A program made the translations under genes and the position numbers. The notes under the pieces were generated by a model. That model was not told the origin of the DNA, made no database searches, and saw only the letters and a list, made by a program, of their open reading frames with translations. From a virus, in the IMG/VR virus record IMGVR_UViG_3300043137_000338: a stretch of DNA of 64,000 nucleotides. One strand, written 5' to 3'. Of the stretch, positions 7,691 to 63,756 are shown piece by piece; positions within the stretch are counted from its first letter, which is position 1; every line of letters begins with the position of its first letter.

Positions 7691-9787
7691 ATGAAACAAA
7701 ACACCTTTGATCTGTCAGCCAAGCTGCTGGCTACCGAGAACATCTCCGTTGTTCGTGCGCCAACTTCCACCGCGTCCTTCGACATTAAGAATCGGACGTT
7801 GACGCTTCCTAATTGGAAAGACACCACGCCGGAGATTGAGTCGATGTTGATCGGACATGAGGTCGGTCACGCTCTGTTCACTGATGTCTCCTACATCAAA
7901 CCCATTAAAGAAAATCCTGCGCTTATGTCGTACATGAACATCCTAGAAGATGTTCGTGTAGAAAAACTGATCAAGCGACTCTATCCGGGTATTCGTAAAA
8001 CGATGACTGAGGGATATCGCCAACTGAATCAGCGAGATTTCTTTGGAATTAAATCTGCGAAGAATCTGAATACCCTGCTTCTGATTGACAAACTCAATCT
8101 TTACTTTAAGGTTGGTTTTGATTGCGGAGTCACGTTCACACCTAAAGAAAAGCAATTCGTTAACCGAGCAGAAAACACCGAGACCATCGACGATATCATC
8201 TCCTTGGCTAACGAGATTAGGGAGTACTCTAAGCATAAGAATGATGCAGATAAACGGGAATTCGATGACGAATTCAGTGGTGATGATTCAGACTACTTCG
8301 ATGATGAAGACGAAGATGATACCGATGAAGAATTCGGTAGCTCTTCTTCCTATGATGATGACGAAGATGATGAAGACGAGTACGATGATGATTCTGATCG
8401 GAAGTCGTCAAGGTCTATTCGCAAACCGAAAATTGAGGAAGAAGATCTGGAAGCCAAGACTGCAGATGCTTTCGATAAAAAACTGGCTTCCTTGGCAGAT
8501 TCTTCTGTTCGGTATACGTATTATGAGTTGGAGTCTCAATATAAAGAAGACCCGATCGTTGGATACAAAACCATCCTGAATGAGACTAAGGAAGTTGATG
8601 AGTATGTGGATTCGATGTATATCTCACAGTTTAAGCAGGAGACTGATCGAGTTGTGAGTTATCTCGTGAAAGAATTCGAGATGCGTAAATCTGCCACGTT
8701 GTACAAACGAGCTCAGACTTCGAAGTCTGGTTCTTTGGATATGGGCAAGGTTTGGTCGTATAAGTTGAACGACGATTTGTTCAAACGTGTCACCACTATT
8801 CCTGCTGGCAAGAACCATGGTATGGTTTTCCTTCTGGATTGGTCTGGTTCTATGATTGATGTTATTCAAGACACTATCAAACAGGTGATTAATCTGGCGA
8901 TGTTTTGCCAGCGTGCCAACATTCCGTATCAGGTGTTTGCATTCACTAGCTATTATAAAGGAGATAATATCTATAAGCCATATTCTCCTGATTCGCTAGC
9001 AGACAAACAAGTGATTTGCAATAATTCTGGCACTTTCAATCTGCTAGAGTTGTTCTCTGATAAAATGTCCTCTGCTGATTTCAATACTATGATTCGTCGG
9101 ACGTTGACTACCTATTCCTTTTTCCGTCAGAAACAGGGCGGATATAGTTTGGGAGGAACTCCTTTGAATGAGGCATTGGTCTATATGTATAATTATATCG
9201 ACAAATTTATCAAGAATCGAAACATCGAGAAAATGACTCTGATCACTCTGACTGATGGAGAGGGTGGAGAGTTGTATTCTAATAAAGGTCGCCTCCAACC
9301 TAACGGATGGGAGCAGGATTCTTTTGGTAGGCATGTTTATTTCAAGAATAAACATTTCGTTCGTGATATTTACACGAAAAAGAATTATGAATTTTCATCT
9401 AACGAAACTGTGCAAACCTGCTCTATTTTGAATATGATTAAGGACCGATACCGAATTAATGTTGTGGGTTTTTACATCTGCAACAATAATTCGGGTGTGA
9501 TTCGAAACGCCATCAACAATAATATTCCAGAGTTTCGTGCTGATATGACGCAAACTATTGTTGACATTCGTAAAGAATTCAAAGAGTTTGGTTATGCATC
9601 TTTGACAAATGCTGGTCGTGACGAATTGTTTTTGGTTCCTGCGAGCTCGACTAAAATTAATGACGGTGAAATTAAAGCTGCTTCTGATATGTCTGCCGCT
9701 GCAATCGCTAGGAATTTCTCGAAATTTATGGGAAATAAAAAGACTTCTCGTGTGCTGCTGAACAAGTTCATCGGGTACGTCGCCTGA
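7691..9787 (+). CDS. von Willebrand factor A domain protein with acidic linker (CobT-like partner of the following AAA ATPase)
   Basis: MIDAS-like DWSGSM, zinc-metallopeptidase-like HEVGHALF near the N-terminus, extreme D/E-rich segment near 8290-8400; immediately followed by a MoxR/CobS-type AAA ATPase. Confidence 0.6.
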   Translation: MKQNTFDLSAKLLATENISVVRAPTSTASFDIKNRTLTLPNWKDTTPEIESMLIGHEVGHALFTDVSYIKPIKENPALMSYMNILEDVRVEKLIKRLYPGIRKTMTEGYRQLNQRDFFGIKSAKNLNTLLLIDKLNLYFKVGFDCGVTFTPKEKQFVNRAENTETIDDIISLANEIREYSKHKNDADKREFDDEFSGDDSDYFDDEDEDDTDEEFGSSSSYDDDEDDEDEYDDDSDRKSSRSIRKPKIEEEDLEAKTADAFDKKLASLADSSVRYTYYELESQYKEDPIVGYKTILNETKEVDEYVDSMYISQFKQETDRVVSYLVKEFEMRKSATLYKRAQTSKSGSLDMGKVWSYKLNDDLFKRVTTIPAGKNHGMVFLLDWSGSMIDVIQDTIKQVINLAMFCQRANIPYQVFAFTSYYKGDNIYKPYSPDSLADKQVICNNSGTFNLLELFSDKMSSADFNTMIRRTLTTYSFFRQKQGGYSLGGTPLNEALVYMYNYIDKFIKNRNIEKMTLITLTDGEGGELYSNKGRLQPNGWEQDSFGRHVYFKNKHFVRDIYTKKNYEFSSNETVQTCSILNMIKDRYRINVVGFYICNNNSGVIRNAINNNIPEFRADMTQTIVDIRKEFKEFGYASLTNAGRDELFLVPASSTKINDGEIKAASDMSAAAIARNFSKFMGNKKTSRVLLNKFIGYVA

Positions 9788-9817: not shown

Positions 9818-9826
9818 TTGCATTGC

Positions 9827-9855
9827 TTGACTTTAATTCAGTGTCGCGGTATAAT
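9827..9855 (+). promoter_or_regulatory. early promoter TTGACTTTAATTCA..N..TATAAT
   Basis: -35 TTGACT 9827-9832, -10 TATAAT 9850-9855, 17-nt spacer. Confidence 0.65.
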
Positions 9856-9880
9856 AAGTTTTTACAAGATGGAGTGTGTG

Positions 9881-11056
9881 ATGAGTAAAATTGATAGCGT
9901 GTTTGCGGCTGCGTTCGAGGCTAAACTCTTTGAGTTGTTCCCCGACATCAAGACCAGTGGAACTGTCAAGAGTAAAGAAATCGTTGAAACGATGACTGCA
10001 CTGAATACCAAAAAGAGCCCGCATTGGCTGATGGTTAATCGGTTGTCGCGAGGCATCTATGCGATGCCTGACTCTTCTCCGGATACTACTCAAGAAGTAG
10101 TGGTTCGCATTAAGCCAGAACCACGCAAACCCGAAGTGCGCATTGAGTCGTTTGAAGTTGATTATTCGAATATCGAATCGCTCATTCCTCAGAGGGATCC
10201 GAATTTTGTTCCCTTTGGTAACTACGCAGACCTCGAGAACATTGTCAAGTCTGGTATTTTCTATCCTTGCTACATCAGCGGTCCGACCGGTAACGGTAAG
10301 TCCACCATGATCGAGCAAATTTGCGCCAAGCACAAGCGTCCTCTGATTCGAGTTAACTTGAATATGATGACCGATGAGGAACAACTCATCGGCTCCAAGA
10401 CTCTCGTCGACGGCAACGTGCAGATCGTCGAAGGTCCGGTGCTTATTGCAATGCGCAATGGTACTGCTCTCTTGCTGGATGAAATTGATGCTGGTGCAGC
10501 AAACACTACGCTTTGCCTGCAATCTATCTTGGAAGGTAAGCCATACTACTTCAAGCTGAAGAACGAGATGATCGTTCCTACTCCTGGCTTCAATATCTTT
10601 GCAACTGCAAATACCAAGGGTAAGGGTTCTGACGATGGTCGTTATATCGGTACTAACGTTCTGAACGAAGCATTCTTGGAGCGTTTCGCTGTTACCTTCG
10701 AGCAGGAATATCCCTCTGCTCGGGTAGAAATCAAAATCATTAAGAACCTTATGCAATCTTTCGGATGTGTTGACGATGAGTTCGCAGAGACGCTCGTTAA
10801 GTGGGCTGACGCAATTCGCCGCACTTTCGAGGACGGTGGTGTTGATGAGACGATCACAACTCGCCGTATGATTCATATTGTTCGCGCATATGCGATCTTC
10901 AAGAATCGTGCTAAGGCAATCGAACTGTGCTGCAATCGGTTTGATGCTGCGACTAAGATCGCGTTTAAAGATCTGTTCGAGAAGGTTTCCACACCAGATG
11001 AAACCGATCCTGTGCAAAATCCGATGGAAGCGTCGACCGACGAGGTTCCGTTCTGA
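9881..11056 (+). CDS. MoxR/CobS-like AAA+ ATPase
   Basis: Walker A SGPTGNGKST, Walker B LLLDEID, sensor region; ATG at 9881 with GGAG spacing chosen over the track's 9818 start, which lies upstream of the promoter -10. Confidence 0.7.
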   Translation: MSKIDSVFAAAFEAKLFELFPDIKTSGTVKSKEIVETMTALNTKKSPHWLMVNRLSRGIYAMPDSSPDTTQEVVVRIKPEPRKPEVRIESFEVDYSNIESLIPQRDPNFVPFGNYADLENIVKSGIFYPCYISGPTGNGKSTMIEQICAKHKRPLIRVNLNMMTDEEQLIGSKTLVDGNVQIVEGPVLIAMRNGTALLLDEIDAGAANTTLCLQSILEGKPYYFKLKNEMIVPTPGFNIFATANTKGKGSDDGRYIGTNVLNEAFLERFAVTFEQEYPSARVEIKIIKNLMQSFGCVDDEFAETLVKWADAIRRTFEDGGVDETITTRRMIHIVRAYAIFKNRAKAIELCCNRFDAATKIAFKDLFEKVSTPDETDPVQNPMEASTDEVPF

Positions 11057-57219: not shown

Positions 57220-57657
57220 ATGAAACAGAAATGGATTGATGCATTCATGGATACTGCTGAGCGTTTTGCTCAGCTGAGTTCTGCCACCAGGTTGAAGGTG
57301 GGTGCAGTGGTAGTCCAAGAAAACCGTATAATCTCCATCGGCTATAATGGAATGCCAGCTGGCTGGAGTAATGAGTGTGAAGAAGAAATTGTTGTCGATG
57401 TCGACGACAAGTGGTTGGTAACATTGAAAACAAAAGATGAGGTTATTCATGCAGAAGCTAATGCAATTCTCAAGTTGGCACGCGATGGTGAACGAGGCAC
57501 TGGCGCCAGCATATTCATCACTCATGCTCCTTGCATCAACTGTGCTAAGTTGGTCTACGGCGCTGGAATCAAGAACGTTTACTACCGTAACAGCTACCGT
57601 GACACCGCTGGTGAAGACTTTCTGGTGAAGTGCGAAATAAATGTTGAAAAAACTTGA
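57220..57657 (+). CDS. cd: dCMP deaminase
   Basis: Zinc-binding HAEANAI..HAPCINCAKL; ATG 57220. Confidence 0.85.
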   Translation: MKQKWIDAFMDTAERFAQLSSATRLKVGAVVVQENRIISIGYNGMPAGWSNECEEEIVVDVDDKWLVTLKTKDEVIHAEANAILKLARDGERGTGASIFITHAPCINCAKLVYGAGIKNVYYRNSYRDTAGEDFLVKCEINVEKT

Positions 57658-57682
57658 CTTTAAACGAAAATCGCTGTATAAT
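57654..57682 (+). promoter_or_regulatory. early promoter TTGACTTTAAACGA..N..TATAAT driving a non-coding transcript
   Basis: -35 57654-57659, -10 57677-57682. Confidence 0.6.
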
Positions 57683-57688
57683 AACGCT

Positions 57689-57954: not shown

Positions 57955-58011
57955 GCTTTACTTTAATTCACTTCTGAAGTAAAATAGGTGCTTAGGTTGA
58001 GTGAAGAGGTT
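57955..58011 (+). repeat. 57-nt promoter repeat unit copy A (GCTTTACTTTAATTCACTTCTGAAGTAAAATAGGTGCTTAGGTTGAGTGAAGAGGTTG)
   Basis: Near-identical units at 58042, 62806 and 62889; each holds a -35/-10 promoter and a conserved leader. Confidence 0.7.
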
Positions 58012-58041: not shown

Positions 58042-58098
58042 GCTTGACTTTAATTCAGGTTTGAAGTAAAATAGGTGCTTACGTTGAATGGCAACGGC
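58042..58098 (+). repeat. 57-nt promoter repeat unit copy B
   Basis: -35 TTGACT 58044-58049, -10 TAAAAT 58067-58072. Confidence 0.7.
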
Positions 58099-58574: not shown

Positions 58575-58582
58575 CCAATAAT

Positions 58583-58620
58583 TCCCGGTTAGCTCAAAGG
58601 TAGAGCATACGACTGATTTA
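58583..58620 (+). pseudogene. truncated tRNA 5' half (acceptor + D-arm + 5' anticodon stem, anticodon-loop start CTGAT), interrupted by the endonuclease cassette
   Basis: TCCCGGT TA GCTC AAAGGTA GAGC A TACGA CTGAT.. runs straight into TTTTATAAATAG; no matching 3' half found downstream. Confidence 0.5.
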
Positions 58621-58651: not shown

Positions 58652-59254
58652 ATGTTTATTTGTAAATACTGTAGTAAAGATTGCAACAAAAGGTCACATA
58701 AAAATCATGAATTAAGGTGTCCTAAAAATGCAAACAGGGAATATAAAAATGGAATGTTAGGTAAGAAGGGTAGTAATCAATACACAAAATCAAAATCATT
58801 GTGTATTGAGCCGCCAGTATATGACAGATCTAACTGGAAAAGAGGTGGGGCAGCAGCTTGGTCTACCGAAGAAAGATCAGAAAATGCTAAAAAGCAAGGG
58901 TTCGGTGGTTATAGAGAAAACGCTGGTAACTCGAAGAAGTTTCGAGTTATTGACTCGTTTGGAAAAGAAACTACACTTCAAAGTTCTTATGAATTTAGGT
59001 GTAGTGAGATTTTAAATGAACTTGGTATAAAATGGATTAGACCTAAAGCGTTGAAATATGATAATAGGAATTACTTTGCAGATTTTTATCTTCCAGATTT
59101 AGATATCTGGCTTGACCCAAAGAATAGCTATAAAGCAAAACATGACGAAGAAAAGATAAGAAAGGTCATTGAGCAAAACTCTGTTAGATTGTTTGTTCTT
59201 CTGGAACACCAGCTATCTAAAGAATATATTGGGAGATTAGCTGAGACGGATTAG
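58652..59254 (+). CDS. putative homing endonuclease (Cys-rich N-terminus, PD-(D/E)XK/Vsr-like C-terminus)
   Basis: CKYCSKDC..H..C zinc motif; ..FADFYLPDLDIWLDPK.. nuclease-like core; uses the shared endonuclease-gene cassette. Confidence 0.45.
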   Translation: MFICKYCSKDCNKRSHKNHELRCPKNANREYKNGMLGKKGSNQYTKSKSLCIEPPVYDRSNWKRGGAAAWSTEERSENAKKQGFGGYRENAGNSKKFRVIDSFGKETTLQSSYEFRCSEILNELGIKWIRPKALKYDNRNYFADFYLPDLDIWLDPKNSYKAKHDEEKIRKVIEQNSVRLFVLLEHQLSKEYIGRLAETD

Positions 59255-59355
59255 CAGTGTCTTGATAAGGCACAGAGGTTGGATCGTTACCAACATCTTC
59301 TACCAGTAGATTAGTAAGACAGAGGATCGTTACCTCTACTGGGAACCAGATTTAT

Positions 59356-59426: not shown

Positions 59427-59635
59427 CCAGTTTTAGGATCATTTCAGCAAACTTAAAAACTTTCTTTTATCCAGAAACTAAAAAGTTGATCCTGTTATTT
59501 TCAATTCCGCAGAACCCGAGCATGGTGCATGGGCTTGACTGTTAATCAATGTTTAGCTGGGATCGTTACCCAGATGCGGAGCCAAATATCGCCTTGACTG
59601 ATGGCGTACAATGAGATAAGTAATCAGTCACCTAT

Positions 59636-59790: not shown

Positions 59791-59800
59791 CCAAACAAAT

Positions 59801-59889
59801 GGAAAGTAATGCAGCGGGGTTGGTCCTGCGACCAGCCTTGAAAACTGGGTTCTCAGAAATGGGATGGGGTTCGACTCCTCTGCTTTCCG
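59801..59889 (+). tRNA. tRNA-Ser (UGA), type II
   Basis: Acceptor GGAAAGT/GCTTTCC, anticodon arm CCAGC CTTGAAA ACTGG, long variable arm, CCA encoded. Confidence 0.7.
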
Positions 59890-59898
59890 CCAAATTAT

Positions 59899-59981
59899 GG
59901 AGTGAATGGAACAATGGTGTTCTAGCTGGCTGTAACCCAGTGGCACTTCGGTGCAGGTAGGTTCGATCCCTACTCACTTCA
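59899..59981 (+). tRNA. tRNA-Tyr (GUA), type II
   Basis: Anticodon arm GCTGG CTGTAAC CCAGT, variable hairpin GCAC TTCG GTGC, CCA encoded. Confidence 0.65.
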
Positions 59982-59990
59982 CCAAGTTTT

Positions 59991-60098
59991 AGGATACTTA
60001 CAGCAAAACTAACTCAAACGTTAGGTAACTGGTTCGACTCCAGTTTCACGCAATAGCGCGAATAGCTCATTCGGTAGAGCAGACGAAGAAAGTATCCT
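59991..60098 (+). ncRNA. circularly permuted tRNA-like element closed by a 9-bp inverted repeat
   Basis: Order is anticodon-like hairpin, T-arm ACTGG TTCGACT CCAGT, 3' acceptor TTCACGC-A, 3-nt spacer, 5' acceptor GCGCGAA, D-arm TA GCTC ATTCGGTA GAGC; flanked by AGGATACTT (59991-59999) and AAGTATCCT (60090-60098). Confidence 0.4.
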
Positions 60099-60108
60099 GT
60101 TATTCAAT

Positions 60109-60193
60109 GGAAGCGTGGCAGAGTGGTCTATTGTATCTGTCTAGAAAGCAGCCGACTCGAAAGGGTCCGTGAGTTCGAATCTCACCGCTTCCT
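60109..60193 (+). tRNA. type II tRNA (Ser-like), anticodon loop CUAGAAA (nominal anticodon AGA; identity uncertain)
   Basis: Acceptor GGAAGCG/CGCTTCC, D-loop GAGTGGTCTAT, variable hairpin GACTC GAAA GGGTC, T-loop TTCGAAT. Confidence 0.5.
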
Positions 60194-60223
60194 CCCTTGA
60201 GTTGATGTCAAGACTCGAACTTT

Positions 60224-60249
60224 TATAAATAGTTACATAGGAGGAAACT
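60224..60249 (+). promoter_or_regulatory. late promoter TATAAATA + AGGAGGAAAC cassette
   Basis: CTTTTATAAATAGTTACATAGGAGGAAACTATG. Confidence 0.7.
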
Positions 60250-60876
60250 ATGTACTATACTGTTTATAAAATAACGAATCGAATCAATGGTAAGATCTAT
60301 ATTGGATCACATAAAACCAAAGATTTGAATGACAATTATATGGGTTCTGGAAAGTATCTTAAATACTCTCAAGAGAAGCATGGTATAGAAAATTTTACCA
60401 AAGAAATTCTTTTTGTTTTTGATACTCCAGAACTTATGTACGCAAAAGAAGCTGAGATTGTTAATGATGAATTCCTTGCTGAAGAAAATACATACAATCT
60501 AAAGCTAGGTGGATATGGTGGGTTTGATTATCTAAATGCTTGGAAGGAAAATCCGACACATTCTGCTGACCATTACTTAAAGATGTCTTTGCGATTGAAA
60601 GAAAAATATCCAAATAGTCCTATGTACGGACGTAAACATTCTGAAGATTCTAAAAGTAAAAACAGTCAATCTAATCTTGGTAATCAAAGGTTTCTTGGGC
60701 GTAAACATTCTGACGAAACTAAACAAAAAATGCGCTATAGCGCATTGGAAAAACATAGTAAAGATAAAAATTCGCAGTTCGGAACTATGTGGATAACCGA
60801 TGGTTTGGAAAACAAAAAGATCAATAAACTACACGAAATTCCTGATGGTTGGCGTCGTGGTAGAGTGATAAATTAA
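60250..60876 (+). CDS. GIY-YIG homing endonuclease (SegB-like, in tRNA cluster)
   Basis: YKITNRINGKIYIGSHK GIY-YIG motif, repeated NUMOD3-like GRKHSEDSK / GRKHSDETK. Confidence 0.8.
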   Translation: MYYTVYKITNRINGKIYIGSHKTKDLNDNYMGSGKYLKYSQEKHGIENFTKEILFVFDTPELMYAKEAEIVNDEFLAEENTYNLKLGGYGGFDYLNAWKENPTHSADHYLKMSLRLKEKYPNSPMYGRKHSEDSKSKNSQSNLGNQRFLGRKHSDETKQKMRYSALEKHSKDKNSQFGTMWITDGLENKKINKLHEIPDGWRRGRVIN

Positions 60877-60902
60877 GTATCTTCGCATACTTCAGATGGG
60901 TC

Positions 60903-60931
60903 TTGACTTTTGATGAATTGTGTAGTAGAAT
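60903..60931 (+). promoter_or_regulatory. sigma70-type promoter TTGACT..N18..TAGAAT
   Basis: Preceded by hairpin AAGTATCTTCGCATACTT 60876-60893. Confidence 0.45.
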
Positions 60932-61038
60932 AGAAACATATGAATATGAATGGGAAGAACAAGAACTTGTTCTTTCGTTGATTAACAAATGGAGAAACGG
61001 TGATCGATTCTCTGCTAATGATTATAGGAGGAAGTCAC

Positions 61039-61618
61039 ATGCCAGCAGTATTTTTAGTATCTGACACACACTTTCGGGCATAGTGGAGTATGCAGATTCA
61101 CTGAGGCAGACGGAGTGACTAAGATTCGACCGTGGACTGATCCAGAAGAAATGGATGAGGAAATGGTCAAGCGATGGAACGAAACCGTCAAGCCAAACGA
61201 CAAGGTTTATCACTTAGGTGACGTTGTCATTAACCGCAAGTCGTTAAGTATTATGAGCCGGTTAAATGGTGACAAGGTTCTGATCAAGGGTAACCATGAC
61301 ATCTTCAAGTTAGAGGAATATACTCAATACTTCAGAGACATTCGTGGTAGTCATGTGATGAACGGTATGATTTTAACTCATATCCCTCTGCATCCAAGAC
61401 AATTATATCGTTTCGGTACTAACATTCATGGTCACTTACATACCAATCGTGTTATGTTTGACGACAAGGAAATGGGTGAGATTATCGATCCGCGTTACTT
61501 CTGTGTTTGCGTTGAACAAACAGATTTTCGCCCTATCTTATTTGAAGACGTAATTAAGCGTATCAAAGAACAGGGTGGTACCGTGGGTTTCAAGAACGGT
61601 AATGGTCCAGTGATGTAA
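61039..61618 (+). pseudogene. calcineurin-like metallophosphoesterase interrupted by a +1 frameshift at UUU CGG G (61072-61078)
   Basis: Frame 1 gives MPAVFLVSDTHF then R A stop; frame +1 continues GHSGV.. and carries GNHD and GHLH motifs; removing C61075 restores DTHFGH. Confidence 0.6.
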
Positions 61619-61730
61619 GAATTGGAAGATGATCTCGGTGCTTCCGTTCTCCCGAGTTAGAATAACTGATATCGTTTCAGTAAGACGGAGCCAAATTTAG
61701 GAGGATTACGGTTTCGTAAACTGTTATTTT

Positions 61731-62399: not shown

Positions 62400-62411
62400 C
62401 CAAAGATGTGC

Positions 62412-62440
62412 TTGACTTTAAATCAAGTCTCATGTATAAT
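62412..62440 (+). promoter_or_regulatory. early promoter TTGACTTTAAATCA..N..TATAAT inside the tRNA cluster
   Basis: -35 62412-62417, -10 62435-62440. Confidence 0.6.
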
Positions 62441-62452
62441 AGCTGTATGAAA

Positions 62453-62805: not shown

Positions 62806-62862
62806 CTTGACTTTAATTCGCTTCTGTAGTAAAATAGGTGCTTAGGTTGAGTGAAGAAGTTG
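62806..62862 (+). repeat. 57-nt promoter repeat unit copy C
   Basis: GCTTGACTTTAATTCGCTTCTGTAGTAAAATAGGTGCTTAGGTTGAGTGAAGAAGTTG. Confidence 0.7.
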
Positions 62863-62888: not shown

Positions 62889-62940
62889 GCTTGACTTTAA
62901 TTCGCTTCTGTAGTAAAATAGGTGCTTAGGTTGATTAGGA
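62889..62940 (+). repeat. 57-nt promoter repeat unit copy D (leader runs into the RBS of the next ORF)
   Basis: Identical to copy C through AGGTGCTTAGGTTGA, then TTAGGAGC. Confidence 0.7.
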
Positions 62941-63586: not shown

Positions 63587-63674
63587 CCACAGTTTTTAGG
63601 ATAGTTTCTGCAAATTATACAGACTACTCAAATTGGATTGTCTTAGTCGACAACACTATCCTGTTGTATTTAAT

Positions 63675-63756
63675 GGAGATGAAGCATCAATGGTGATGCA
63701 GTGGACTGTAAATCCGCCGCCCTCGGGCACGACTGGTTCGATCCCAGTAATCTCCA
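63675..63756 (+). tRNA. second tRNA-Tyr-like (GUA), type II
   Basis: Acceptor GGAGATG/AATCTCC (one mismatch), anticodon arm GTGGA CTGTAAA TCCGC, variable hairpin GCCC TC GGGC, CCA encoded. Confidence 0.55.

What the first reader, a model, noticed from the sequence alone, without database searches (positions are those of the whole stretch)
59991..60098. Circularly permuted tRNA-like unit enclosed by a perfect 9-bp inverted repeat
Between tRNA-Tyr and the next type II tRNA the sequence reads in this order. First an anticodon-like hairpin (CTAAC TCAAAC GTTAG). Then a textbook T-arm (ACTGG TTCGACT CCAGT) and a 3' acceptor strand TTCACGC plus discriminator A. After a 3-nt spacer comes a 5' acceptor strand GCGCGAA (6/7 complementary to TTCACGC). 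Then U8-A9 and a canonical D-arm (GCTC ATTCGGTA GAGC). The whole unit is bracketed by AGGATACTT (59991-59999) and its exact reverse complement AAGTATCCT (60090-60098). So the 3' half of a tRNA lies upstream of its 5' half, with the termini able to pair. That is the topology of the permuted tRNA genes of Cyanidioschyzon, and is unexpected in a phage. It could instead be a relic of tandem tRNA duplication and deletion mediated by the neighbouring endonuclease genes, or a structured small RNA.
Basis: seen in the sequence. Interest (0 to 1): 0.75.

Follow-up and report, generated by a model that had tools for sequence, protein, structure and literature searches.

The report
Phage Y-RNA-like permuted tRNA mimic
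The flagged sequence is a real, conserved small structured RNA that looks like a tRNA with its two halves swapped and its ends sealed, and it belongs to a large, apparently undescribed family of phage RNAs that sit next to a hidden relative of the Ro60 RNA-binding protein.

Summary
Window 59990-60099 folds into a 10-bp terminal stem enclosing a small hairpin, a T-arm, a 7-bp acceptor helix closed by a 4-nt loop, then UA and a D-arm.

It is not a relic. Seventeen orthologues from 17 uncultivated T4-like phage contigs keep every helix: 96.8% of cells pair, against 39-47% when partners are slid. Compensatory changes occur in 19 of 29 pairs.

It is not a Cyanidioschyzon-type permuted tRNA gene:
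- there is no bulge-helix-bulge motif;
- its "anticodon" hairpin has a 6-nt loop throughout its subfamily;
- the acceptor end is sealed and has no CCA.

The best database match is the tRNA-like module of Rfam YrlA (bacterial Y RNA), at 30.7 bits, below the gathering score of 69.

The terminal stem plus a CAGCAA motif is a conserved "frame". It occurs 3 times in the window and hundreds of times in relatives, almost always on the tRNA strand, with varied cargo.

Best reading: a Y-RNA-like partner of a phage Ro60-like protein. RNA-protein binding and the biological function are inferred, not shown.

The parts
59985..59989 (+). 5' single-stranded tail AGUUU, directly after the CCA of tRNA-Tyr (59899-59984)
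   Evidence: The consensus '.tttTAG' is conserved in 647 distinct frames.
59990..59999 (+). 5' strand of the terminal clamp helix, UAGGAUACUU
   Evidence: It pairs with 60090-60099 in the MFE fold. Five of 9 pairs and 4 of 9 pairs show compensatory changes. More than 20 different complementary versions occur across frames.
60000..60008 (+). Conserved single-stranded motif ACAGCAAAA (frame signature CAGCAA)
   Evidence: Each base of CAGCAA is present in 80-88% of 647 distinct frames, in a scan that required only the GCA. The motif is in 15 of the 17 class-C orthologues; L184 and L219 have GCAU.
60009..60024 (+). Hairpin 1: CUAAC UCAAAC GUUAG, a 5-bp stem with a 6-nt loop. It occupies the position of the 'V' stem-loop of YrlA or of an anticodon arm.
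   Evidence: All 5 pairs co-vary. Several close orthologues (L223, L194, L174) also have a 6-nt loop.
60028..60044 (+). T-arm: ACUGG UUCGACU CCAGU
   Evidence: Three of 5 pairs show compensatory changes. The GGUUCRAnnCC core is in all 17 orthologues.
60045..60062 (+). Closed acceptor-like helix: UUCACGC / loop AAUA / GCGCGAA. Seven positions, with one A.C mismatch. No CCA.
   Evidence: All 6 scored pairs show compensatory changes. Most orthologues have a 7-bp acceptor helix closed by a loop of about 3-8 nt.
60063..60080 (+). U8-A9 linker and D-arm: GCUC AUUCGGUA GAGC. A14, G18, G19 and A21 are present.
   Evidence: UAGCUCA..GGUAGAGC is nearly invariant in the 17 orthologues. It matches the YrlA consensus GUAGCUCAauuuGGUAGAGC.
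60081..60089 (+). 3' junction AGACGAAGA. It contains GACGAAG at 60082-60088.
   Evidence: The junction is A-rich in the family. CGAA is present in only 53 of 647 frames, so it is not a family feature.
60090..60099 (+). 3' strand of the terminal clamp helix, AAGUAUCCUG
60100..60108 (+). 3' tail UUAUUCAAU, running up to the +1 position of tRNA-Ser(AGA) at 60109
   Evidence: The consensus 'GTt.t.tt' follows the helix.
59434..59494 (+). Second frame of the same family, between tRNA-Gly and an unusual tRNA-Asn-like gene. Its cargo is a small hairpin.
   Evidence: D15; 25.9 bits.
63597..63663 (+). Third frame of the same family, between tRNA-Pro and a Tyr-like tRNA found only by Rfam (63675-63756)
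   Evidence: D15; 18.4 bits.

Best explanation
Window 59985-60108 encodes a roughly 110-120-nt non-coding RNA of the Y-RNA kind.

How it is probably made (inferred). It is transcribed within the polycistronic tRNA precursor from the strong promoters near 57654 and 58044. It is released when the flanking tRNAs are matured: 3' processing of tRNA-Tyr and RNase P cleavage at tRNA-Ser +1.

Its fold (shown by folding and covariation). It has two modules.
1. A terminal clamp made of the 10-bp helix UAGGAUACUU/AAGUAUCCUG plus the single-stranded CAGCAA motif. This clamp is shared by hundreds of paralogous "frames".
2. A complete but circularly permuted, non-chargeable tRNA mimic: hairpin, T-arm, sealed 7-bp acceptor helix, U8-A9 and D-arm. 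It keeps the nucleotides that build the tRNA elbow.

Proposed mechanism (inferred from synteny and from what is established for Ro60-Y RNA particles). The clamp is the handle bound by a phage-encoded, highly divergent Ro60-like ring protein (Pfam DUF2828 + DUF7788). The gene for this protein lies just downstream of such frames in relatives. The tRNA-like module acts as the effector end. It either tethers a tRNA-recognising partner, such as an exoribonuclease or a tRNA-processing or tRNA-targeting enzyme, or acts as an uncleavable or unchargeable tRNA decoy.
For: Structure
- MFE fold with z = -3.68.
- Twelve-sequence alignment A3: 97.2% of cells pair, against 42-44% when slid.
- Seventeen-sequence alignment A4: 96.8% pair, against 39-47% when slid. 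Nineteen of 29 pairs have changes on both sides. The acceptor helix scores 6 of 6, hairpin 1 scores 5 of 5, and the T stem 3 of 5.
- Near-identical orthologues differ by clean compensatory swaps. One example is the acceptor stem of L085 versus L087, CGCAGAG/UUCUGUG against CGCUGAG/UUCAGUG.

Kind
- Rfam YrlA matches 60020-60088 to model positions 23-89, which cover the T-arm, the closed acceptor stem-loop, UA and the D-arm. Score 30.7 bits, E = 2e-5.
- YrlA RNAs have the order V, T, AS, D between paired 5' and 3' ends (Chen 2014, PMC4201824).

RNA-level and strand-specific
- 69 of 70 frames are on the tRNA strand, and internal G.U pairs outnumber A.C mismatches 10 to 1.
- 177 frames are on the gene strand and 2 on the opposite strand.

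Family size
- 647 distinct frames are found in the loci held.

Protein partner
- A ~480-aa DUF2828 + DUF7788 ORF recurs next to frames.
- Of the loci fetched without reference to frames that hold this gene, 16 of 16 evaluable have a frame ending 20-199 nt upstream on the same strand.
- In 80 loci fetched through the protein, 59 of 75 have a frame within 200 nt upstream and 67 of 75 within 400 nt. Only 2 of 80 have one within 200 nt downstream.
- The AF2 model has pLDDT 86 and pTM 0.86.
- The top 8 Foldseek PDB hits are all Ro60/TROVE proteins over the full length, with E from 2e-9 to 4e-7.
- The MIDAS motif DxSxS is invariant.

Precedent
- Phage Ro60 genes with Y-RNA-like genes just upstream are known (PMC4201824; PMC12135203).
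Against: - No Ro60-like gene lies in the 64-kb window (tblastn; Pfam and PHROG scans). The window ends 3.9 kb downstream of the unit, still inside the tRNA cluster. The partner in this particular phage is therefore assumed from relatives, where orthologues of the unit lie 0.35-6 kb upstream of the gene.
- The motif thought to contact Ro60 in YrlA (GNCGAAN0-1G near the 5' end) is absent from the 5' strand. CGAA is not enriched in the family: 53 of 647 frames.
- The YrlA covariance model scores well below its gathering score (30.7 against 69).
- The protein shows no sequence-level match to TROVE (profile E = 0.35).
- Binding, expression, the RNA ends and any effector are untested.
- Tight linkage of frames to the gene could instead reflect a cis-acting leader or operator.
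- The alignments used for pair counts were fitted to the model. Two rows of A3 are partly misaligned.
Confidence: 0.58

Rival explanations
1. A stand-alone tRNA decoy or sponge with no dedicated protein partner. The sealed tRNA mimic, and the sister frames that display bare anticodon stem-loops, would soak up host tRNA-targeting nucleases or tRNA-binding enzymes. The clamp would only stabilise and insulate the fold inside the tRNA operon.
For: - Many frames carry perfect 7-nt anticodon loops of the form CU-NNN-AA. The counts are UGU x6, UCU x4, UUU x4, GGA x4 and GUA x4. From my own knowledge, several of these are anticodons known as targets of anticodon nucleases.
- The mimics cannot be charged, so they would not disturb decoding.
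- The element sits in a phage tRNA cluster.
Against: - This does not explain why the clamp and the CAGCAA sequence are conserved across hundreds of frames whatever their cargo.
- It does not explain why frames sit directly upstream of the Ro60-like gene.
- The target's own hairpin loop is 6 nt, not anticodon-like.
- Twenty-six of 61 frames have no recognisable tRNA part.
Confidence: 0.2
2. A cis-acting element rather than a trans-acting RNA. It could be a processing or insulation punctuation mark in the tRNA operon, or an operator through which the Ro60-like protein autoregulates the downstream message.
For: - Frames fill exactly the space between one tRNA's CCA and the next tRNA's +1 position.
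- Several frames abut the ribosome-binding site of the phosphoesterase gene or of the Ro60-like gene.
- Gaps of about 22 nt to the Ro60-like start codon are very common.
Against: - A simple punctuation hairpin would not need a complete, co-varying tRNA-like module with elbow nucleotides.
- Most inter-tRNA spacers in the same clusters are under 15 nt and have no frame.
- The target is followed by a tRNA, not by an ORF.
Confidence: 0.1
3. A genuine permuted tRNA gene that matures into a working tRNA. This could happen by circularisation and re-opening, as in Cyanidioschyzon. [quoted passage not shown]
For: - Un-permuted relatives are called as canonical tRNA-Arg(UCU), Tyr(GUA) and Ser(GGA) by ARAGORN.
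- Three paralogues (L004 8081, L084 5699, L087 5800) keep A-CCA immediately after the 3' acceptor strand.
- The acceptor helix is 7 bp, which is the RNase P determinant (PMC4201824).
Against: - In the target and its close orthologues the acceptor is closed by a short loop (mostly 3-8 nt) with no CCA, and the "anticodon" loop is 6 nt in the closest ones.
- The clamp is an uninterrupted helix with no bulge-helix-bulge.
- An extra 10-bp helix between positions 26 and 27 would break the D/anticodon stack needed on the ribosome. This point is inference.
- Sister frames with only an anticodon hairpin, or with no acceptor ends, cannot be tRNAs, yet they share the frame.
Confidence: 0.05
4. A non-functional relic: two tRNA fragments left by tandem duplication and deletion, perhaps driven by the neighbouring homing endonucleases.
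For: - The acceptor strands are complementary, as expected if both halves came from one tRNA.
- Homing-endonuclease damage to tRNA genes is visible nearby. A tRNA-Ile(GAU) is split at 58582/59306 by an endonuclease cassette.
- A GIY-YIG gene lies at 60250-60876.
Against: - The same architecture is kept in at least 17 contigs with compensatory substitutions in every helix.
- It occupies a conserved slot, after tRNA-Arg(ACG) and before tRNA-Ser(AGA) or the phosphoesterase gene, in phages that lack the endonuclease.
Confidence: 0.03
5. A DNA-level element: a miniature inverted-repeat transposable element, a recombination site or an endonuclease target whose inverted repeats act in DNA.
For: - The element has terminal inverted repeats flanked by similar short sequences, GTTTT and GTTAT.
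- There are many copies per genome.
Against: - Strand bias is extreme: 69 to 1 and 177 to 2.
- G.U pairs outnumber A.C mismatches 10 to 1.
- The repeat sequence itself varies freely while complementarity is kept.
- The cargo is structured RNA-like.
Confidence: 0.03

Closest known systems
YrlA / bacterial and phage Y RNAs (Rfam RF02553; Chen et al. 2014, PMC4201824)
   Same: - The 5' and 3' ends pair into a stem.
- Inside the stem, in the same 5'-to-3' order: a small 'V' hairpin, a T-arm, a closed acceptor-like stem-loop, UA and a D-arm GCUCA..GGUAGAGC.
- The RNA is not chargeable.
- The genes lie on the same strand as, and near, a Ro60-fold gene (shown here for the family in relatives).
- Examples are also known in phages.
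   Different: - Only the tRNA-like module matches the model, at 30.7 bits against a gathering score of 69.
- The putative Ro60-contact motif GNCGAAN0-1G on the 5' strand is replaced by a different conserved clamp, UAGGAU...CAGCAA.
- The partner protein is not recognisable as TROVE by sequence (it is DUF2828/DUF7788).
- The RNAs are multi-copy, at least 3-7 per tRNA cluster.
- They are embedded between tRNA genes.
- They carry interchangeable cargo, including bare anticodon hairpins.
Thermus phage phiLo Ro60 with Yrl1/Yrl2 (PMC12135203)
   Same: - Y-RNA-like genes immediately upstream.
- A stem / large internal loop / stem layout.
   Different: - The phiLo RNAs were picked by a CGAA motif, and that paper does not describe them as tRNA-like.
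- The protein there is a recognisable TROVE protein.
- CGAA is not a feature of the frame family.
Circularly permuted tRNA genes of Cyanidioschyzon merolae (own knowledge)
   Same: - The 3' half of the tRNA is encoded upstream of the 5' half.
- The precursor ends can pair.
- Un-permuting yields a cloverleaf.
   Different: - There is no bulge-helix-bulge motif.
- The break lies between positions 26 and 27, with a long continuous helix.
- The acceptor is sealed, with no CCA.
- The loop is 6 nt.
- The host is bacterial, which by my own knowledge lacks the splicing endonuclease.
- There is no evidence for a mature decoding tRNA.
Two-piece (circularly permuted) tmRNA genes (own knowledge)
   Same: A T-arm and 3' acceptor strand are encoded upstream of the 5' acceptor strand.
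   Different: - There is no tag reading frame and there are no pseudoknots.
- ARAGORN finds no tmRNA.
- A canonical D-arm is present.
- The size is about 110 nt.
T4 stable RNAs species 1 and 2 (rnaC, rnaD) in the T4 tRNA cluster
   Same: They are small stable RNAs of unknown function encoded among phage tRNA genes and cut out of the tRNA precursor. rnaC contains a T-arm.
   Different: There is no sequence similarity, no frame motif and no permuted arrangement.

Membership tests
YrlA / bacterial Y RNA (RF02553) | A tRNA-like module with the order V hairpin, T-arm, closed acceptor-like stem-loop, D-arm, enclosed by pairing of the RNA's two ends | tested here: met
   MFE fold. The cmscan alignment covers model positions 23-89. 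Covariation supports every helix.
YrlA / bacterial Y RNA (RF02553) | Reaches the Rfam gathering score of 69 bits over the whole model | tested here: not met
   30.7 bits. Model positions 1-22 and 90-114, the Ro60-binding part, are unmatched. No hit at gathering score.
YrlA / bacterial Y RNA (RF02553) | GNCGAAN0-1G motif near the 5' end (the putative Ro60 contact) | tested here: not met
   The 5' side reads UAGGAUACUUACAGCAAAA. A GACGAAG occurs only on the 3' side (60082-60088) and is not conserved in orthologues. CGAA is present in 53 of 647 frames.
YrlA / bacterial Y RNA (RF02553) | Encoded within about 4 kb of a Ro60 gene and on the same strand | tested here: inconclusive
   No such gene lies in the window, which ends 3.9 kb downstream. 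In relatives, frames of the family lie 9-400 nt upstream of a Ro60-fold gene. Orthologues of the target lie 0.35-6 kb upstream on the same strand.
YrlA / bacterial Y RNA (RF02553) | Bound by Ro60, carries tRNA-type modifications, and is in some species cut by RNase P | not testable with these tools
   Needs immunoprecipitation, modification mapping and an RNase P assay.
Ro60 / TROVE protein (the presumed partner; tested on relative L004 13270-14712) | An alpha-helical HEAT-repeat ring followed by a vWA domain with a MIDAS motif | tested here: met
   [not shown]
Ro60 / TROVE protein (the presumed partner; tested on relative L004 13270-14712) | Sequence match to Pfam TROVE (PF05731) | tested here: not met
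   Only DUF2828 and DUF7788 match, even at E up to 10. A profile against PDB gives TROVE chains at E = 0.35, in the MIDAS region only.
Permuted tRNA gene (Cyanidioschyzon type) | The 3' half lies upstream of the 5' half, and un-permuting gives a cloverleaf | tested here: met
Permuted tRNA gene (Cyanidioschyzon type) | The precursor termini form a bulge-helix-bulge motif for the splicing endonuclease | tested here: not met
   The terminal helix is an uninterrupted 10 bp.
Permuted tRNA gene (Cyanidioschyzon type) | The product is a decoding tRNA with a 7-nt anticodon loop and a free NCCA 3' end after processing | tested here: not met
   ARAGORN on the un-permuted window copy reports a 6-nt loop and tRNA-???. 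The loop is also 6 nt in the closest orthologues L223, L194 and L174. In most orthologues the acceptor is closed by a 3-8 nt loop without CCA.
Ordinary tRNA gene, or head-to-tail tRNA dimer scored by mistake | A complete tRNA on each side, with acceptor strands that belong to different tRNAs | tested here: not met
   No tRNA is called in 59985-60108. The tRNA model matches only the 3' part, at 12.9 bits. The two acceptor strands pair with each other and co-vary.
Two-piece tmRNA | A tag-peptide reading frame and pseudoknots, detectable by ARAGORN | tested here: not met
   ARAGORN reports no tmRNA in the window.

The most novel reading that the evidence does not exclude
DUF2828/DUF7788 proteins are a very large, sequence-cryptic branch of the Ro60 family; more than 7,500 homologues were scored in metagenomes. 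In uncultivated T4-like phages they work with a dedicated, multi-copy class of Y-like RNAs. These RNAs share one protein-binding clamp and have swappable effector modules made of tRNA parts: a bare anticodon arm, an end-less whole tRNA, or a circularly permuted tRNA such as the one in this window. The set would form a programmable tRNA-surveillance or anti-defence ribonucleoprotein system encoded inside the phage tRNA operon.
Probability: 0.45. Interest if true: 0.85.

Novelty: new variant of a known kind. Interest (0 to 1): 0.72.

Why it matters
- Y RNAs and Ro60 are conserved from bacteria to humans, yet the role of the tRNA-like module of bacterial Y RNAs is still unknown.
- This system offers natural variants in which that module ranges from a lone anticodon arm to a full permuted tRNA, all on one conserved handle. 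It is a ready-made series for asking what the module binds.
- It gives a testable function to two domains of unknown function, DUF2828 and DUF7788. The papers that mention DUF2828 are largely on plants.
- It explains many long "spacers" in phage tRNA clusters that annotation pipelines leave blank.
- It shows that tRNA finders and Rfam miss a whole class of tRNA-derived phage RNAs.
- If the RNAs act against tRNA-targeting host defences, they would be a new type of RNA-based counter-defence.

Tried and rejected
- **Close relatives among cultured phages.** None found. Megablast of 59800-60300 and of 18 kb of the window gave nothing useful. Blastn hit only tRNA parts.
- **Exact 25-mer of the T-arm and acceptor in IMG/VR.** No match.
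- **Blastn of the unit against the first 82 loci.** Only a T-arm hit. Homologues appeared only with a structure-aware model.
- **My first two home-made permuted-tRNA scanners.** Far too permissive, giving 783 and 2,297 hits. I discarded them.
- **MAFFT alignment of four divergent members.** It misaligned the acceptor and D region, so I did not use it. I built a single-sequence covariance model instead.
- **T4 rnaC and rnaD.** No resemblance.
- **Ro60/TROVE, RNA ligase or kinase genes in the window.** None found among ORFs of 250 aa or more, or among ORFs within 4 kb.
- **A canonical Ro60-binding motif.** I considered that the GACGAAG at 60082-60088 might be one, and rejected it. It is on the wrong strand, is not conserved in orthologues, and CGAA is not enriched.
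- **Levitt-pair (15:48) covariation.** By eye on the alignment, no consistent pattern, so I make no claim.
- **Sequence-level link of DUF2828 to TROVE.** Not significant. Only the fold comparison was decisive.
- **Literature.** Searches on permuted tRNAs in phages, tRNA decoys and DUF2828 found nothing describing these frames.
Full report
**What is there.**
- 59990-59999 (UAGGAUACUU) pairs with 60090-60099 (AAGUAUCCUG).
- Inside this helix lie, in order:
  - ACAGCAAAA;
  - a 5-bp hairpin with a 6-nt loop (60009-60024);
  - GUA;
  - a canonical T-arm (60028-60044);
  - TTCACGC, loop AATA and GCGCGAA (60045-60062; six pairs and one A.C mismatch);
  - TA;
  - a canonical D-arm (60065-80);
  - AGACGAAGA.

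RNAfold returns this five-helix architecture on its own (-32.9 kcal/mol, z = -3.68, 0 of 200 shuffles as good). The unit fills the whole gap between tRNA-Tyr (59899-59984) and tRNA-Ser(AGA) (60109-60195). No ORF of 40 aa or more overlaps it. ARAGORN and Rfam at gathering score call nothing there.

**Setting.** The window comes from an uncultivated T4-like phage.
- Its gp43-type DNA polymerase is only about 55% identical to those of cyanophages.
- There is no nucleotide match in the phage collection.
- From about 58.1 kb onward it carries a large tRNA cluster interspersed with homing-endonuclease genes.
- Strong sigma-70-like promoters lie at 57654, 57957 and 58044. No credible terminator lies before the end of tRNA-Ser. 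The unit is therefore most likely co-transcribed with the tRNAs; this is inference.

**The unit is one copy of a repeated "frame".** The flanks recur three times in the window, at 59434-59494, 59990-60099 and 63597-63663. The pattern is AGUUUUAGGAU, then a stem, CAGCAAA, the cargo, the complementary stem strand and AUCCUGUUAUU. The variable part of the stem changes in a compensating way: GGAUCA/UGAUCC, GGAUACUU/AAGUAUCC and GGAUAGU/ACUAUCC.

Related IMG/VR contigs were fetched through two neighbouring proteins. They have 3-7 such frames per tRNA cluster. A loose scan of all loci held gives 647 distinct frames with the consensus .tttTAGgaT...t.CaGCAA ... aaaaa...AtcCTGTt.

Three observations point to selection on an RNA made from the tRNA strand, and not to a DNA palindrome:
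- Frames are almost exclusively on the tRNA strand: 69 of 70 and 177 against 2.
- More than 20 different, perfectly complementary stems occur.
- Internal G.U pairs outnumber A.C mismatches 10 to 1.

**Cargo classes.**
- (A) A lone hairpin with a perfect anticodon-type loop CU-NNN-AA. Examples are GUU, UUU, UGU, GGA and UGA.
- (B) A D-like hairpin, an anticodon arm and a T-arm in normal order, with only a 3-5-bp acceptor remnant that merges into the clamp.
- (C) The permuted arrangement of the target: hairpin, T-arm, closed acceptor helix, D-arm.
- Of 61 distinct frames in the first census, 26 have other cargo.

**Class C is conserved.** I built a covariance model from the window sequence alone. 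It finds full-length matches in many contigs. The best scores are L223 (113 bits), L194 (96), L251 and L200 (91), L174 (89), L240 (81), L256 and L260 (73) and L117 (71).

Pair counts on the 17-sequence alignment A4:
- 96.8% of cells form standard pairs, against 39-47% when partners are slid by 1-3 columns.
- None of 500 column shuffles reaches the observed values.
- 19 of 29 pairs change on both sides: acceptor 6 of 6, hairpin 1 5 of 5, T stem 3 of 5, clamp 4 of 9.

The earlier 12-sequence set gives the same picture.

Caveats:
- These alignments are fitted to the model.
- Two rows of A3 are partly misaligned.
- Some "covariation" between paralogues could be inherited from different parent tRNAs.

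Against that last caveat, near-identical orthologues differ by single compensatory swaps. Examples are acceptor CGCAGAG/UUCUGUG against CGCUGAG/UUCAGUG, and clamp GGAUUC/GAAUCC against GGAUCC/GGAUCC.

The slot is conserved too. Class-C frames sit after tRNA-Arg(ACG) and before tRNA-Ser(AGA) or the phosphoesterase gene in L004, L084, L087 and L117. In the window a tRNA-Tyr, tRNA-Ser and a GIY-YIG endonuclease cassette have been added around it.

**Is it a permuted tRNA gene?** Topologically, yes. I joined the D-arm to the hairpin and opened the acceptor loop in silico. ARAGORN then calls L117 as tRNA-Arg(UCU), L085 as tRNA-Tyr(GUA) and L087 as tRNA-Ser(GGA). The window copy gives a cloverleaf with a 6-nt loop, "tRNA-???".

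Functionally, the evidence points the other way.
- In the target's closest orthologues (L223, L194, L174) the hairpin loop is also 6 nt.
- In most orthologues the acceptor is sealed by a short loop (about 3-8 nt) with no CCA.
- The clamp has no bulge-helix-bulge.
- Classes A and B cannot be tRNAs, yet they share the frame.

A residual possibility is RNase P opening, as shown for M. smegmatis YrlA (PMC4201824). This is most plausible for three paralogues that retain A-CCA after the 3' strand, and less so for the window copy with its 4-nt loop.

**Closest known kind.** With permissive thresholds, the only meaningful Rfam match is YrlA (RF02553), at 30.7 bits and E = 2e-5 on the 124-nt stretch. 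Window 60020-60088 aligns to model positions 23-89: T-arm, closed acceptor-like hairpin, UA and D-arm GCUCA..GGUAGAGC inside a stem.

Chen et al. 2014 describe YrlA in these terms:
- a Ro60-binding stem formed by the RNA ends;
- a tRNA-like module in the order V, T, AS, D;
- genes within about 4 kb of the Ro60 gene on the same strand;
- examples also in 22 phages.

The part of the model that carries the putative Ro60 contact (GNCGAAN0-1G) is not matched. That motif is not a feature of the frames.

**A hidden Ro60.** The window has no TROVE protein. I therefore looked at large ORFs near class-C frames in relatives. A ~475-480-aa protein with Pfam DUF2828 (N-terminal) and DUF7788 (C-terminal; faint VWA_2 match) recurs.

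Linkage to frames:
- By tblastn, 66 of the 284 sequences then held contain this gene.
- In the 16 evaluable loci that had been fetched without reference to frames, all 16 have a frame ending 20-199 nt upstream on the same strand.
- In a protein-first test I fetched 80 IMG/VR loci through the protein. A frame ends within 200 nt upstream in 59 of 75 and within 400 nt in 67 of 75. Only 2 of 80 have one within 200 nt downstream.

The fold:
- The protein has no significant sequence match to TROVE or to any solved structure.
- An AlphaFold2 model from a 72-sequence alignment is confident (pLDDT 86, pTM 0.86).
- The eight best Foldseek PDB hits are all Ro60 proteins aligned over the full length, with E from 2e-9 to 4e-7 and TM 0.36-0.65.
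- The vWA MIDAS motif DxSxS is invariant.

The layout "Y-like RNA genes immediately upstream of a phage Ro60" matches what has been reported for phiLo (PMC12135203).

**How it most likely works.**

Shown:
- a conserved, strand-specific, co-varying fold;
- membership of a large frame family;
- tight genomic linkage of that family to a Ro60-fold gene in relatives.

Inferred:
- The RNA is cut out of the tRNA precursor.
- Its clamp and CAGCAA motif bind the Ro60-like ring protein.
- Its sealed tRNA mimic is the effector end. Established Ro60-Y RNA biology has Y RNAs gating the Ro60 cavity and tethering Ro60 to exoribonucleases such as PNPase (PMC4201824; PMC12135203). By analogy, this end recruits a tRNA-recognising factor or acts as a decoy.

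I put 0.58 on the Y-RNA-like partner model. The precise effector is unknown.

Rivals:
- a protein-independent decoy (0.2);
- a cis-acting processing or operator element (0.1);
- a true permuted or two-piece tRNA (0.05);
- a relic (0.03);
- a DNA element (0.03).

**Limits.**
- The partner gene is not in the window, which ends 3.9 kb downstream of the unit, inside the tRNA cluster.
- Orthologues of the unit lie 0.35-6 kb upstream of the gene in relatives. This fits a gene lying just beyond the window, but that is an assumption.
- Expression, RNA ends, binding and phenotype are all untested.

**Novelty.** Y RNAs with tRNA-like modules, including in phages, are known. The following are new as far as the held literature and Rfam 15 show:
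- a distinct conserved clamp;
- a multi-copy arrangement inside tRNA operons;
- interchangeable tRNA-part cargo, including fully permuted tRNAs;
- a partner that is a sequence-cryptic Ro60 homologue currently filed as DUF2828/DUF7788.

I rate this a new variant of a known kind.

Noticed in passing
window 59503-59587: An unusual tRNA-Asn(GUU)-like gene: anticodon loop CUGUUAA, odd D-arm, T-loop AUCGUUA, and CCA encoded. ARAGORN and Rfam at gathering score both miss it. It is about 92% identical over 85 nt to a sequence in Acinetobacter T4-like phages (AC4, KARL-1 and others), where the sequence is mostly unannotated or listed as a hypothetical protein. It is about 84% identical to a sequence in Synechococcus phage BUCT-ZZ01, which ARAGORN does call as tRNA-Asn.
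   Followed up: partly
window 59801-59893 (also L004 7987-8081, L117 5611-5703, L036, L038): A tRNA with a tRNA-Sec-like fold. The Rfam tRNA-Sec model scores 33.9 bits, below the gathering score of 47. It has anticodon loop CUUGAAA (UGA, serine), a long variable arm and an encoded CCA. It is 99% identical in L036 and L038. ARAGORN misses it.
   Followed up: partly
window 58582-58617, 58652-59254, 59231-59305, 59306-59349: A tRNA-Ile(GAU)-like gene appears to be split in its anticodon loop. Its 5' half is TCCCGGT..TACGA CTGATT and its 3' half is AGAGG ATCGTTA CCTCT ACTGGGA ACCA. The insert has a late-promoter-like TATAAATA, a 200-aa ORF with a weak resolvase-like PHROG match, and a replacement tRNA-Ile(GAU). 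This looks like a homing cassette that brings its own tRNA copy.
   Followed up: no
window 59279-59290, 59321-59335, 59556-59570, 61663-61680: A set of T-arms has the loop AUCGUUA instead of UUCGAAU, so positions 54 and 58 look swapped. The same loop type occurs in tRNAs of Acinetobacter phage AC4 (L001 about 1870-1890).
   Followed up: no
window 61115-61618 and orthologues (e.g. L004 8216 onward, L117 5927 onward): A metallophosphoesterase gene (phrog_547; weak Pfam Metallophos_2 match) sits inside the tRNA cluster in all relatives. It usually follows a class-C frame or tRNA-Ser(AGA) directly. It may be an RNA end-healing enzyme; that is speculation.
   Followed up: no
L004 13093-13228, L095 448-583, L100 6894-7001 and many others: Several of the frames directly upstream of the Ro60-like gene are larger (about 96-242 nt). 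Three of them share a conserved hairpin, GUGAG UUUCGAnUU CUCAC, and a tail, AAAACAAAAAG(U/A)AGAAA.
   Followed up: partly
L002 692-848 (Synechococcus phage BUCT-ZZ01, ON615601): A 157-nt tRNA-like sequence has the acceptor ACACAAG/CTTGTGT plus ACCA. It embeds a second T-arm, a closed 7-bp hairpin (CGAAAGT/ACTTTCG), TA and a D-like hairpin. This is a permuted module nested inside a tRNA-like frame, in a cultured cyanophage.
   Followed up: no
L007 17334-17410, L085 3787-3861, L088 8371-8445: ARAGORN calls tRNAs with anticodon CUA (reported as 'Pyl') in related phages. These are possible amber-suppressor tRNAs.
   Followed up: no
window 57653-57684, 57956-57987, 58043-58074, 60902-60933, 62411-62442, 62806-62837, 62890-62921: A near-consensus promoter block is repeated: CTTGACTTTAAT, a spacer, then TAAAATAG. 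It lies within 61-nt direct repeats that flank sub-clusters of tRNA genes.
   Followed up: no
window 7691-9787 and 9818-11056: A 698-aa protein (phrog_459, no Pfam hit) lies next to a MoxR/CbbQ-type AAA+ ATPase. This is the pairing often annotated as CobT/CobS-like in T4-like cyanophages.
   Followed up: no
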